From the NCBI RefSeq assembly GCF_988242995.1, contig NZ_OZ547043.1: a stretch of DNA of 64,000 bases, one strand, 5' to 3'. Positions 54,878 to 57,800 of this stretch are shown piece by piece; position 1 is the stretch's first letter; each line of letters opens with the position of its first letter. The position numbers were made by a program.

Positions 54878-57800
54878 TTAAGCGCGCGCTTCAACTCACC
54901 CCTGCAATATTTTGTCCATCACGCGCCCCGGCAGCAGGCGCTTGAGCACCATTACCGCCCTGGTCACCAGCGTTACCGGATAGCGCATCTTCGGTTTCTC
55001 GCTAATAAAAGCATGGCGCACTTTGTCGACCACCGCTTCCGGTCCCAACGTAAAGCGGGCGGCGATGCCAGGATTTTCGACTGGTTTATCACTTTGCGTC
55101 TGGTTGACGTTGTCGGTGAAGCGAGTACGAATGGGACCGGGTTCGATCAGGCTGACTTTTATTCCGCTGTGGCGCAGCTCCATGCGCAGCGCATCCGACC
55201 ACGCCTCCAGCGCATATTTACTGGCTGCGTAAGCGCCGCGACCCGGCGTGGAGATTAATCCCATCACCGATGAGGTCATCACAATACGCCCTTCACCGTG
55301 CGGTAACATCGCGGGTAACAGGCGCATGGTGAGCTGGTGTGCGCCGAAAAAGTTGGCAGAAAACTGCTGTTCCATCTGCGCACGGCTGATGGTGGAAAGG
55401 GGGCCATACATGCCGAATCCGGCATTGTTAAAGATCCCATACAGACAATTATCGGTCAGGGCGATCACCTCGTCGGCTGCGCGATCAACACTTTCTGGTG
55501 AATCCAGATCGATCAACACGCCGGTAAATCCCATGCTGTTCATGCGCTCAACATCATCCGGTTTCCGGCAACCTGCCAGCACATGAAAACCCTGGCGTTT
55601 TAATTCGAGCGCGCTTTCCAGGCCAATTCCACTGGAACATCCGGTAATTAAGACCGATTTTTGCATAACTTTACCTGTCAGGATCTCCGTTGCTTTATGA
55701 GTCATGATTTACTAAAGGCTGCAACTGCTTCGCCATCCAGTCGGCAATAAACGGCTGGGCGTCGCGGTTGGGATGAATACCGTCATCCTGCATCCATTGT
55801 GGTTTGAGGTAGACCTCTTCCATAAAAAAGGGCAGCAGCGGAACATCAAACTCTTTGGCGAGTTTGGGGTAAATGGCGCTAAAGGCTTCATTATAACGGC
55901 GACCATAGTTTGCAGGCAGACGTATTTGCATTAACAATGGTTCAGCGTTGGCGGCTTTGACATCCTGCAAAATCTGGCGCAGCGTTTGCTCGGTTTGTTG
56001 TGGCTGAAAACCACGCAAACCGTCATTGCCGCCCAGTTCTACCAGCACCCAGCGCGGCTGATGCTGTTTCAGCAGAGCCGGAAGGCGCGCCAGCCCTTGT
56101 TGCGAGGTGTCGCCGCTGATGCTGGCATTGACTACCGACGTTTTACTCTGCCACTTATCATTCAACAAGGCAGGCCAGGCCGCGCTGGCAGACATTCGAT
56201 ACCCGGCGCTCAGGCTATCACCCAGAATCAATAACGTGTCCGCTGCGGCGGCACGGAAGGTTAACAGGACCAGGAACAGGAAGGGCAAATGCCAGCGGAA
56301 AACATTGTTGAAGTTCATCATCTTAAGAAGTCCGTCGGTCAGGGGGAGCATGAACTCTCCATCCTCACCGGAGTTGAGCTGGTTGTCAAACGTGGCGAGA
56401 CCATCGCACTGGTGGGCGAGTCGGGATCGGGTAAGTCAACCTTGCTGGCGATCCTCGCCGGGCTGGATGACGGCAGCAGTGGCGAAGTGAGTCTGGTGGG
56501 ACAACCGCTACATAATATGGACGAAGAAGCGCGGGCAAAGTTGCGCGCGAAGCACGTAGGCTTTGTTTTTCAGTCATTTATGTTAATTCCTACCCTTAAC
56601 GCGCTGGAAAACGTCGAGCTTCCGGCGCTGCTGCGTGGTGAGAGTAGCGCAGAAAGTCGTAACGGGGCGAAAGCGTTGCTCGAACAGTTAGGGCTGGGTA
56701 AACGTCTTGATCATCTTCCGGCACAGCTTTCCGGCGGTGAACAGCAACGAGTGGCGCTGGCGCGAGCCTTTAATGGTCGACCTGATGTGCTGTTTGCCGA
56801 CGAGCCCACCGGCAACCTTGACCGCCAGACCGGCGATAAAATTGCCGACCTGCTGTTTTCCCTCAACCGTGAGCATGGCACCACGTTGATTATGGTGACC
56901 CACGACCTGCAACTGGCGGCACGCTGCGACCGCTGCTTACGGCTGGTGAACGGGCAATTGCAGGAGGAAGCATGATTGCACGTTGGTTCTGGCGCGAATG
57001 GCGTTCGCCGTCGCTATTAATTGTCTGGCTGGCGCTAAGCCTGGCGGTGGCCTGCGTGCTGGCGCTGGGCAATATCAGCGATCGCATGGAGAAGGGCTTA
57101 AGCCAACAAAGCCGGGAGTTTATGGCGGGCGATCGGGCGTTGCGCAGTTCGCGCGAAGTGCCGCAAGCGTGGCTGGAGGAAGCGCAAAAGCGCGGCCTGA
57201 AAGTCGGCAAGCAGCTGACTTTCGCCACCATGACATTTGCAGGCGACACACCGCAGCTGGCGAACGTCAAAGCGGTGGATGATATCTACCCGATGTATGG
57301 CGATCTGCAAACTAATCCCCCTGGCCTGAAACCGCAGGCGGGCAGCGTATTGCTGGCCCCACGCCTGATGGCACTGCTTAACCTGAAAACAGGCGACACC
57401 ATCGACGTGGGCGATGCCACCTTGCGGATTGCCGGAGAAGTGATTCAGGAACCGGATTCCGGTTTTAACCCCTTCCAGATGGCTCCGCGTCTGATGATGA
57501 ATCTGGCGGATGTCGATAAAACCGGAGCCGTGCAGCCGGGGAGTCGGGTCACCTGGCGCTATAAATTCGGCGGCAACGAGAACCAGCTCGACAGCTATGA
57601 GAAATGGTTGTTACCTCAGCTTAAACCCGAACAACGCTGGTACGGTCTGGAACAGGACGAAGGCGCGCTGGGGCGCTCGATGGAACGCTCGCAACAGTTC
57701 CTGCTGCTTTCGGCGCTTCTGACCTTGCTGCTGGCAGTGGCAGCGGTGGCGGTGGCGATGAATCATTACTGTCGCAGTCGCTACGATCTGGTGGCGATCC

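What the first reader, a model, noticed from the sequence alone, without database searches (positions are those of the whole stretch)
55695..56351. tesA and ybbA are divergent with overlapping 5' coding ends; tesA also overlaps ybbO
The ybbA start (56289) lies inside the tesA N-terminal coding region (tesA start 56321), and the tesA stop overlaps the ybbO start by 11 nt. The divergent promoters must therefore be embedded in coding sequence, a compact arrangement that could couple expression of the thioesterase and the ABC transporter.
Basis: seen in the sequence. Interest (0 to 1): 0.25.

Follow-up and report, generated by a model that had tools for sequence, protein, structure and literature searches.

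The report
Head-to-head overlapping tesA and ybbA genes
In E. coli the genes for the periplasmic lipid hydrolase TesA and for the ATPase of its partner transporter YbbAP point away from each other and share their first 30-33 bases, a real but already annotated and published arrangement, whereas the supposed overlap of tesA with ybbO is probably an annotation artefact.

Summary
The window is the E. coli ybbO<-tesA | ybbA->ybbP locus. The tesA/ybbA head-to-head overlap is real. ybbA can only start at 56289. The conserved tesA start is ATG 56318 (K-12 annotates 56321), giving a 30-33 nt overlap in codon register 1:3.

It is already known. It is in K-12 and RefSeq annotation, PLoS Biol 2025 (YbbAP-TesA complex) notes that the operons overlap, and NAR 2025 lists tesA-ybbA among 16 divergent "excludons".

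Published start-site maps confirm promoters inside coding sequence. The tesA start site is at 56353 (TTGACA-17-GAGGAT inside ybbA codons 25-34). ybbA start sites lie at 56227 and further inside tesA. The primary transcripts are therefore antisense over at least 127 nt.

What I add:
- All 80 tesA loci sampled from other species keep ybbAP divergent and adjacent.
- About 60 leave no room for an intergenic promoter; 20 share a CATG start core.
- Synonymous sites of ybbA are frozen across the tesA promoter, leader and overlap.
- The tesA/ybbO 11-nt overlap is probably an artefact; the conserved ybbO start is 55666.

Coupling is plausible, but the one expression dataset found shows reciprocal, not joint, change. 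Interest is low to moderate.

The parts
55695..56321 (-). tesA coding sequence (GDSL hydrolase TesA: thioesterase I / protease I / lysophospholipase L1). K-12 start 56321; conserved start 56318; residues 1-26 are a cleaved signal peptide.
   Evidence: ORF and translation. Pfam Lipase_GDSL_2, E 1.8e-29. K-12 and RefSeq annotation. Solved structures begin at residue 26-28. ATG 56318 is universal in Enterobacterales; the first ATG is lost in 3 genera.
56289..56975 (+). ybbA coding sequence (ATPase of the YbbAP type VII ABC transporter).
   Evidence: It is the only in-frame start in the ORF. Pfam ABC_tran, E 7.5e-34. Identical to the native YbbA part of PDB 9GE6/7/8 chain B, which has 14 extra N-terminal residues.
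56289..56321 (.). Head-to-head coding overlap: 33 nt by K-12 annotation, 30 nt from the conserved ATG at 56318. Codons are in antisense register (position 1 opposite position 3). The tesA Met-Met codons are the reverse complement of ybbA His10-His11. tesA His10 is the reverse complement of the ybbA ATG.
   Evidence: Direct reading. A single-base change alters both proteins in three genera, ybbA H11R together with tesA M1T. 8 of 11 wobble sites are invariant in each frame across 13 genera.
56278..56285 (+). ybbA ribosome-binding sequence AGGAAGGG, which on the other strand encodes the Pro-Phe-Leu part of the tesA signal peptide.
   Evidence: Sequence upstream of the ybbA ATG. Largely conserved across 13 genera; 5 of 9 tesA wobble sites are invariant in 56260-56288.
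56384..56389 (-). tesA promoter -35 hexamer TTGACA, inside ybbA codons 32-34.
   Evidence: Upstream sequence of the mapped start site in Kim 2012 and Cho 2014. Invariant in 13 genera including three consecutive ybbA wobble sites. Found at the same position in other Enterobacterales families.
56361..56366 (-). tesA promoter -10 hexamer GAGGAT (AAGGAT in most genera), 17-nt spacer, inside the ybbA Ile-Leu codons of the LSIL motif.
56353..56353 (-). tesA-ybbO transcription start site (U00096.2 position 519021). It gives a 32-nt leader to ATG 56321, and lies only 2 nt upstream of the long-ORF ATG at 56351.
   Evidence: 45 reads in Kim 2012 and 145 reads in Cho 2014, under the three conditions labelled E, S and G. 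The coordinate map was checked against the printed upstream sequences.
56227..56227 (+). Proximal ybbA-ybbP transcription start site (U00096.2 position 518895), giving a 62-nt leader. It lies inside tesA codon 32. Its promoter is not conserved outside Escherichia.
   Evidence: Cho 2014, 48 reads, under the two conditions labelled S and H. The -10 region varies at codon-like sites in other genera.
55720..56134 (+). Further weak plus-strand start sites assigned to ybbA, all antisense within tesA: 55720, 55902, 55945-55947 and 56134.
   Evidence: Cho 2014: 518388 (35 reads) and 518613 (6 reads). Cappable-seq: 518388 and 518615. Kim 2012: 518570 and 518802, 2 reads each. TTTGCA-18-AACAAT lies just upstream of 55945.
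54896..55666 (-). ybbO coding sequence from the conserved start ATG 55666 (MQKSVLITGCSSGIG). The annotated start at 55705 adds 13 non-conserved residues and creates the 11-nt overlap with tesA.
   Evidence: The Pfam adh_short domain begins at annotated residue 16.
55669..55676 (-). Conserved AGGTAAAG(TT) ribosome-binding region directly upstream of ybbO ATG 55666.
   Evidence: The AGGTAAAGTT form is present in most of the 21 Enterobacterales ybbO loci and GTAAAGTT in nearly all, while the rest of the tesA-ybbO spacer (28 nt in most Enterobacteriaceae) varies freely.
55810..55810 (-). Internal start site inside tesA, assigned to a ybbO-only transcript (U00096.2 position 518478).
   Evidence: Cho 2014, 79 reads.
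56972..59386 (+). ybbP (permease with two FtsX domains). Its ATG overlaps the ybbA stop by 4 nt (ATGA).
   Evidence: Pfam FtsX, 2 stretches.

Best explanation
This is a genuine, compact head-to-head junction between two operons that encode parts of one machine: tesA(-ybbO) on one strand and ybbA-ybbP on the other.

Shown:
- Both start codons are real, so the first 10-11 codons of each gene are the reverse complement of the other's.
- The ybbA ribosome-binding site is encoded by tesA signal-peptide codons.
- The tesA leader and core promoter (TTGACA-17-GAGGAT, start site 56353) are encoded by ybbA codons 12-34.
- ybbA-ybbP is transcribed from several weak start sites inside tesA. The nearest is 56227.
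- The two sets of promoters therefore face each other, and the primary transcripts are complementary over at least 127 nt, covering both ribosome-binding sites.

Inferred:
- This geometry links the two operons negatively. RNA polymerases collide or occlude the opposing promoter, and sense-antisense pairing could trigger RNase III cleavage.
- The ratio of hydrolase to transporter would then be set locally rather than both simply rising together.

History:
- The layout is ancient. Most Gammaproteobacteria sampled have the two ATGs sharing a CATG core or lying within about 10 nt.
- The 30-33 nt coding overlap of Enterobacterales arose because the tesA signal peptide gained about 6-8 N-terminal residues.
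For: - Start codons.
- Annotation.
- Start sites: tesA at 56353 (45 and 145 reads); ybbA at 56227 (48 reads) plus 55720, 55902, 55945-55947 and 56134.
- tesA-ybbA is listed among the 16 divergent overlapping-transcript pairs found in at least 50% of 58 MG1655 transcriptomes.
- Selection on embedded signals: ybbA synonymous sites are invariant at 18 of 34 positions across 56289-56392, against 3 of 76 further downstream, in 13 genera (Fisher p = 8.5e-9).
- The -35 TTGACA is invariant, and the same promoter sits at the same place in other Enterobacterales families.
- Synteny: ybbA is divergent and adjacent in all 80 tesA loci, with ybbP detected in 77.
- About 60 of 79 loci have start-to-start spacing between +78 and -11 nt, and 20 share an exact CATG core.
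- Reciprocal expression: wild type versus delta-rpoS in stationary phase gives tesA 6.2 to 8.4, ybbO 7.7 to 8.7 and ybbA 8.2 to 7.2 (log2).
- Physical partnership of TesA with YbbP: PMC12646458 and PDB 9GE8.
Against: - No experiment at this locus shows interference or RNase III dependence. The negative coupling is inferred from geometry, one microarray comparison and a coverage-based classifier.
- Any pair with overlapping coding regions would pass that classifier trivially.
- The rpoS effect could reflect independent sigma-factor preferences of the two promoters.
- The ybbA start sites are weak (2-48 reads, Cappable-seq scores 1.5-2.5) and not conserved. Interference by them on the stronger tesA promoter may be small.
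- Proteins that form a complex would more naturally be expected to be co-expressed.
- Part of the sequence conservation in the tesA promoter region follows from conserved YbbA residues (Ile-Leu and Val-Lys).
Confidence: 0.5

Rival explanations
1. Neutral compaction. The two genes have always been back to back, and the start of the tolerant tesA signal peptide simply drifted upstream into ybbA. The overlap has no regulatory role beyond the fact that signals must sit somewhere.
For: - Vibrio, Pseudomonas and others have the same anchor-to-anchor distance (194-215 nt against 193) but a shorter tesA signal peptide (24-27 against 32 residues before GDS).
- Signal-peptide N-regions and the first strand of ABC ATPases tolerate many sequences.
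- Several lineages (Halomonas, Marinobacter, Aeromonas, Salinicola) have opened gaps of 25-445 nt without losing the gene pair.
- No RNA family or unusual structure was found.
Against: - Zero or near-zero spacing is retained in about 60 of 79 loci from many families.
- Synonymous sites are frozen over about 130 nt.
- The tesA promoter is conserved inside ybbA.
- Transcripts overlap in most transcriptomes.
Confidence: 0.25
2. Positive co-regulation. The conserved 130-bp block holds a shared operator or bidirectional control region through which one regulator switches both operons on together.
For: - TesA and YbbAP form a complex, and the authors suggest possible co-regulation.
- Deep synteny.
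- A conserved block spans both 5' ends.
- Sigma-factor ChIP places sigma-70, sigma-S and sigma-N signals on the region.
Against: - No regulator is known.
- Promoters are face to face rather than back to back.
- tesA and ybbA change in opposite directions in delta-rpoS.
- The conditions under which the start sites were detected differ: tesA under those labelled E, S and G; ybbA 56227 under S and H.
- ybbA and ybbP fall in an rcsB-disrupted strain without tesA being listed.
Confidence: 0.18
3. Mis-annotated start. tesA really begins at TTG 56288 (197-residue product), so the two coding regions abut exactly and do not overlap.
For: - Many automatic gene calls give 194-197-residue TesA proteins starting there.
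- TTG 56288 would give 0-nt spacing, similar to the 0 to 2 nt seen in other lineages.
- The ATG at 56318 has only a weak ribosome-binding match.
Against: - The TTG is absent in Citrobacter werkmanii, Rahnella, Photorhabdus, Providencia and Acerihabitans, while the ATG is universal.
- A TTG start would give a signal peptide (MPFLFLVLL...) without the positively charged N-region that MNFNNVFRWH supplies.
- The mapped start site gives a 32-35 nt leader to the ATGs.
- K-12 and RefSeq curators use the ATGs.
Confidence: 0.07

Closest known systems
YbbAP-TesA type VII ABC transporter / lipid hydrolase complex of E. coli (PLoS Biol 2025, PMC12646458; PDB 9GE6-9GE8)
   Same: It is the same locus. The proteins are identical or near-identical. 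[quoted passage not shown]
   Different: The passages I searched in the paper do not mention start codons, start sites, embedded promoters, the CATG start core in other lineages or the ybbO start.
Divergent 'excludons': overlapping 5' transcripts of neighbouring divergent genes (ExcludonFinder, NAR 2025, PMC12288877)
   Same: tesA-ybbA is explicitly one of the 16 divergent pairs in the MG1655 list. The start-site maps give at least 127 nt of antisense overlap.
   Different: Classical excludons have long untranslated leaders that overlap a neighbour of opposing function. Here the coding regions themselves overlap, and the products are partners in one complex. Reciprocal expression and RNase III dependence have not been shown for this pair.
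Transcriptional interference between face-to-face promoters, for example the coliphage 186 pR/pL switch (recalled from general knowledge)
   Same: Two promoters fire towards each other across a short interval, 126 bp between 56227 and 56353. The tesA promoter has a consensus -35; the ybbA promoters are weak.
   Different: No measurement of interference exists at this locus. Both transcripts here encode needed, cooperating proteins rather than alternative developmental states.
Short divergent gene overlaps in prokaryotic genomes (Palleja et al. 2008, PMC2478687)
   Same: A head-to-head overlap below 60 bp, in phase 123:321.
   Different: Divergent overlaps are only about 1% of annotated overlaps, and all 75 divergent overlaps longer than 60 bp that they examined were start-codon errors. 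This one survives comparative and start-site checks. The neighbouring tesA/ybbO overlap is the usual 5'-extension artefact.

Membership tests
YbbAP-TesA system (type VII ABC transporter with GDSL hydrolase partner) | ABC ATPase YbbA, permease YbbP with FtsX-type domains, and GDSL hydrolase TesA, all encoded together | tested here: met
   Pfam ABC_tran, FtsX (2 stretches) and Lipase_GDSL_2. Identical to the native part of PDB 9GE6-9GE8 YbbA, and matches the 9GE8 TesA chain over residues 27-208 at E 3.4e-121. 99.8% DNA identity to annotated E. coli loci.
Genuine head-to-head (divergent) coding overlap | Both start codons are the ones actually used, not 5' extensions | tested here: met
   ybbA has no alternative start. 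The tesA ATG 56318 is conserved in all Enterobacterales loci, lies downstream of the mapped start site at 56353, and is needed for a normal signal peptide. There is no direct initiation-site experiment.
Divergent excludon | Neighbouring divergent genes whose transcripts overlap | tested here: met
   Published start sites at 56353 (minus) and 56227 (plus) give 127 nt of overlap. The pair is listed in the MG1655 excludome.
Divergent excludon | Mutually exclusive (reciprocal) expression of the two genes | tested here: inconclusive
   One dataset (wild type versus delta-rpoS, stationary phase) shows tesA up about 4.7-fold and ybbA down about 2-fold. No causal test exists.
Divergent excludon | Double-stranded RNA formation and RNase III-dependent processing | not testable with these tools
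   Gene-level dsRNA (p19) tables of PMC12288877 are not held. A plus-strand 5' end at 56329 inside the duplex region is only suggestive.
Translationally coupled tesA-ybbO pair (stop/start overlap) | A conserved downstream start codon overlapping the upstream stop | tested here: not met
   The ATG at 55705 is absent or followed by an in-frame stop in most genera. The conserved start is 55666, 28 nt after the tesA stop.
Known structured RNA element in the shared 5' region | Match to an Rfam family, or unusually stable folding | tested here: not met
   No Rfam match at E <= 1. Folding z-scores are +0.92 and -1.11.

The most novel reading that the evidence does not exclude
The tesA/ybbA junction may be an ancient, selectively maintained two-way control module. 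It has a shared CATG start core in most Gammaproteobacteria and is stretched to a 30-78 nt doubly coding overlap in Enterobacterales. Each mRNA's ribosome-binding site is the antisense of the other gene's first codons, and the tesA promoter is written into conserved ybbA codons. Together these would enforce a fixed or mutually exclusive ratio between a periplasmic lipid hydrolase and the ABC transporter that feeds it.
Probability: 0.25. Interest if true: 0.45.

Novelty: already known. Interest (0 to 1): 0.22.

Why it matters
The overlap itself adds nothing new. It is in the reference annotation and has been noted in two 2025 papers.

It still has some value as a rare divergent overlap that survives scrutiny. 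Divergent overlaps are about 1% of annotated overlaps and are often start-codon errors.

It also matters for practical work:
- tesA is one of the most frequently engineered E. coli genes. Any edit to its first 11 codons, its leader or its promoter also edits YbbA or its ribosome-binding site, and the reverse holds too.
- Knock-outs of either gene risk polar effects on the partner of the same complex.

The comparative results are new but modest:
- near-zero spacing across Gammaproteobacteria;
- a conserved tesA promoter inside ybbA;
- a probable ybbO start correction.

They give a concrete, testable case for how a hydrolase-to-transporter ratio might be set.

Tried and rejected
- A strict sigma-70 consensus scan of 55500-56800 found nothing. 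The real tesA promoter has a 3/6 -10 hexamer and was only recognised from published start sites.
- The SMRT-Cappable-seq supplements have no tesA, ybbA or ybbO entries.
- The Cappable-seq GTF is stored only for part of the plus strand, so it could not confirm the minus-strand tesA start site.
- PMC4288677, my guess at the id of the Thomason 2015 differential RNA-seq paper, is not held.
- A search for initiation-site profiling papers that mention tesA found none. The mBio 2024 N-terminal proteoform supplements have no hits.
- The ExcludonFinder supplements are not held.
- The long tesA ORF from ATG 56351, with an apparently strong GGAG upstream, was considered as the true start. I rejected it as the main start because the transcript begins only 2 nt upstream and the ATG is missing in 3 of 13 genera and GTG in a fourth. 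Leaderless-type use is not excluded.
- A conserved ybbA promoter inside tesA was sought and not found.
- An Rfam scan and RNA folding gave nothing.
- Wobble statistics for tesA beyond about 56150 were discarded because indels misalign that part.
- Automated signal-peptide start calling mis-called about eight loci. These were corrected by eye, and most were re-checked at the junction.
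Full report
**Identity of the locus.** The region is the E. coli ybbO<-tesA | ybbA->ybbP locus. A 1.3-kb query around the finding matches 5,418 of 5,426 complete E. coli genomes at 95-100% identity, under features annotated tesA, ybbA and ybbO. Pfam assigns the four products to GDSL hydrolase, ABC ATPase, FtsX-type permease and short-chain dehydrogenase. YbbA is identical to the native part of the chain in PDB 9GE6-9GE8, and TesA matches the 9GE8 chain (E 3.4e-121) and many older structures.

| Feature | Window coordinates | Strand |
|---|---|---|
| ybbA ATG | 56289 | + |
| tesA ATG-ATG | 56321 and 56318 | - |
| tesA stop codon | 55695-55697 | - |
| annotated ybbO ATG | 55705 | - |

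- The K-12 record has the same geometry, with a 33-nt tesA/ybbA overlap and an 11-nt tesA/ybbO overlap.
- RefSeq PGAP records start tesA at the second ATG, giving a 30-nt overlap.
- The overlap is in strict antisense codon register. tesA Met-Met is the reverse complement of ybbA His10-His11, and tesA His10 is the reverse complement of the ybbA ATG.

**Are the tesA and ybbA start codons right?**

ybbA:
- The reading frame opens after a TAA at 56262-56264.
- It holds no ATG, GTG or TTG other than 56289 until valine 42, one residue before the Walker A glycine.
- A good ribosome-binding sequence, AGGAAGGG, precedes it.

tesA has four candidate starts: ATG 56351, ATG 56321, ATG 56318 and TTG 56288.
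- Across 13 Enterobacteriaceae genera and five further Enterobacterales genera, the ATG equivalent to 56318 is always present.
- The 56321 ATG is lost in three genera. There the same base change turns ybbA His11 into Arg.
- The TTG is missing in several genera.
- The 56351 ATG is missing in three genera and is GTG in a fourth.
- Only the ATG starts give a signal peptide with a charged N-region (MNFNNVFRWH...).
- All solved TesA chains begin at residue 26-28.

**The ybbO start.**
- The annotated ybbO ATG is produced by tesA's C-terminal codons AAT-CAT-GAC.
- It is absent in both Citrobacter loci, Kluyvera, Pseudocitrobacter and others.
- It is followed by an in-frame stop after four or five codons in Enterobacter sp. 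BIGb0383 and Pectobacterium.
- Where it is open, the 13 extra residues are unrelated between genera.
- By contrast, ATG 55666 (MQKSVLITGCSSGIG) is present in all 21 Enterobacterales ybbO loci. AGGTAAAGTT precedes it in most of them and GTAAAGTT in nearly all, at the end of an otherwise variable tesA-ybbO spacer (28 nt in most Enterobacteriaceae).
- The Pfam dehydrogenase domain begins at annotated residue 16.
- The tesA/ybbO overlap is therefore most likely the common 5'-extension annotation artefact.

**Promoters.** The strict consensus scan found none, but published start-site maps do. The coordinate map is window = U00096.2 - 462,668, verified against the printed upstream sequences.

| Window position | Strand | Assigned unit | Support |
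|---|---|---|---|
| 56353 | - | tesA;ybbO | 45 reads (Kim 2012), 145 reads (Cho 2014); conditions labelled E, S, G |
| 56227 | + | ybbA;ybbP | 48 reads (Cho 2014) |
| 55720 | + | ybbA;ybbP | 35 reads (Cho 2014); also in Cappable-seq |
| 55945-55947 | + | ybbA;ybbP | 6 reads (Cho 2014); Cappable-seq score 2.45 |
| 55902 and 56134 | + | ybbA | 2 reads each (Kim 2012) |
| 55810 | - | ybbO alone | 79 reads (Cho 2014) |

- The tesA start site is preceded by TTGACA-17-GAGGAT, which lies in ybbA codons 25-34.
- All of the ybbA start sites lie inside tesA.
- The inference that the promoters are embedded in coding sequence is therefore correct.
- The promoters face each other, and the primary transcripts are complementary over at least 127 nt (56227-56353), including both ribosome-binding sites.
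- The tesA start site lies only 2 nt upstream of ATG 56351. The GGAG in front of that ATG is therefore not in the mRNA. Only leaderless-type use of 56351 remains possible.

**What was already published.**
- ExcludonFinder (NAR 2025) lists tesA-ybbA among the 16 divergent overlapping-transcript pairs present in at least half of 58 MG1655 transcriptomes.

**Comparative analysis done here.** A profile of 26 TesA homologues retrieved 80 loci from one-genome-per-species contigs.
- In every locus ybbA lies immediately upstream of tesA on the other strand, and ybbP was detected beyond it in 77.
- I measured the distance between two fixed anchors, the tesA GDS codon and the ybbA Walker A glycine codon.

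| Lineage | Anchor-to-anchor distance (nt) |
|---|---|
| Enterobacteriaceae | 193 |
| other Enterobacterales | 196 |
| Vibrionaceae | 194-198 |
| Pseudomonas | 215-216 |
| most other lineages | 203-226 |

With the start codons read from the N-terminal peptides, the start-to-start spacing is as follows.

| Spacing between the two start codons | Where |
|---|---|
| 30-33 nt overlap | 18 Enterobacterales loci |
| 51-78 nt overlap | Pectobacterium (a 48-nt insertion in the junction lengthens both proteins) |
| 2-nt overlap, a shared CATG | 20 loci, e.g. Vibrionaceae, Psychromonas, Rheinheimera, Marinobacterium, Oceanisphaera, Nitrincola, Cycloclasticus, Dokdonella and a betaproteobacterium |
| 0 to 3 nt gap | about ten loci |
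| 10-11 nt gap | ten Pseudomonas loci |
| 25-113 nt gap, one of 445 nt | a minority, e.g. Halomonas, Marinobacter, Aeromonas, Microbulbifer, Salinicola |

- About 60 of 79 loci thus have no room for an intergenic promoter or ribosome-binding site.
- The Enterobacterales overlap is a derived state. The anchor distance is unchanged, but the tesA signal peptide is 6-8 residues longer at its N-terminus.

**Selection on the embedded signals.** In 13 Enterobacteriaceae genera the DNA is nearly invariant from about 56260 to 56392, while flanking coding sequence varies at almost every third base.
- ybbA synonymous positions are invariant at 8 of 11 sites in the overlap, 3 of 10 in the tesA leader and 7 of 13 in the tesA core promoter.
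- Further downstream the figure is 3 of 76 (pooled Fisher p = 8.5e-9).
- TTGACA-17-[G/A]AGGAT recurs at the same place in Pectobacterium, Rahnella, Acerihabitans and an uncultured Enterobacterales genome.
- TCGACA-17-CAATAT occupies that place in Photorhabdus and Providencia.
- Close variants occur in a Vibrio, an Oceanisphaera and a Pseudoalteromonas.
- Part of this follows from conserved YbbA residues, but the codon choice is fixed.
- No comparably conserved ybbA promoter exists inside tesA.

**How it most likely works.**
- Shown: the coding overlap is real, the signals are embedded, and the transcripts are antisense.
- Inferred: face-to-face promoters and complementary 5' ends couple the operons negatively, through polymerase collision or occlusion and through antisense pairing with possible RNase III cleavage. 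This would set the hydrolase-to-transporter ratio.
- The only expression comparison found points that way. In stationary phase, delta-rpoS against wild type gives tesA 6.2 to 8.4, ybbO 7.7 to 8.7, ybbA 8.2 to 7.2 and ybbP slightly down (log2). The proximal ybbA start site was detected under the conditions labelled S and H.
- This is correlative. Independent sigma-factor preference would explain it equally well.
- Rival readings are neutral compaction, a shared positive regulator, and a TTG start for tesA. They are weighed in the rival-explanations section.

**Verdict.**
- The main observation is correct but already annotated and published.
- Its secondary claim, the tesA/ybbO overlap, is probably an artefact.
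- The interpretation that promoters lie in coding sequence is confirmed by existing data.
- The idea of coupling remains untested, and if real it is more likely antagonistic than cooperative.
- The comparative findings are new but incremental.

Noticed in passing
window 55664-55705: The annotated ybbO start (ATG 55705, 269 residues) is probably 13 codons too long. The conserved start is ATG 55666, preceded by AGGTAAAGTT in most loci. The K-12 and RefSeq annotation and the 269-residue protein length would need correcting to 256 residues.
   Followed up: yes
window 56349-56353: The mapped tesA start site (56353) lies 2 nt upstream of an in-frame ATG (56351). That ATG would add MLPLTDGLLK to pre-TesA. 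A leaderless-type long precursor is not excluded. The ATG is present in 9 of 13 genera and is GTG in one more.
   Followed up: partly
L014 and L015 (Pectobacterium), junction around locus positions 3357-3501: A 48-nt insertion sits exactly in the tesA/ybbA junction. ybbA has lost the ancestral ATG and starts 15 codons further upstream. tesA gains about 16 residues in its signal-peptide N-region. The head-to-head overlap becomes 51-78 nt, which would exceed the 60-bp limit above which all divergent overlaps were reported to be artefacts.
   Followed up: partly
window 56329 (+): Cho 2014 lists a plus-strand 5' end (518997, 18 reads) 40 nt inside ybbA, within the sense-antisense duplex region and assigned to 'ybbP'. 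It cannot encode full YbbA. It could be a spurious promoter or a processing product.
   Followed up: no
window 55810 (-): An internal start site within tesA (79 reads) is assigned to a ybbO-only transcript. ybbO is therefore not strictly dependent on the tesA promoter.
   Followed up: no
window 56972-56975: The ybbA stop and the ybbP start overlap by 4 nt (ATGA), the usual arrangement for translational coupling within an operon.
   Followed up: no
L009, L010, L013 versus window 56319-56321: One base substitution changes both proteins at once: tesA Met1 to Thr and ybbA His11 to Arg. This is a direct illustration of the double coding. The His codons of YbbA in Enterobacterales appear to exist because they are the complement of the tesA ATGs.
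   Followed up: yes
window 53981-54871 (cnoX/ybbN): The mechanical ORF is 296 residues, whereas the K-12 cnoX annotation is 284 residues (855 nt). In the best-matching genome, strain ST2747, cnoX is annotated as frameshifted.
   Followed up: no
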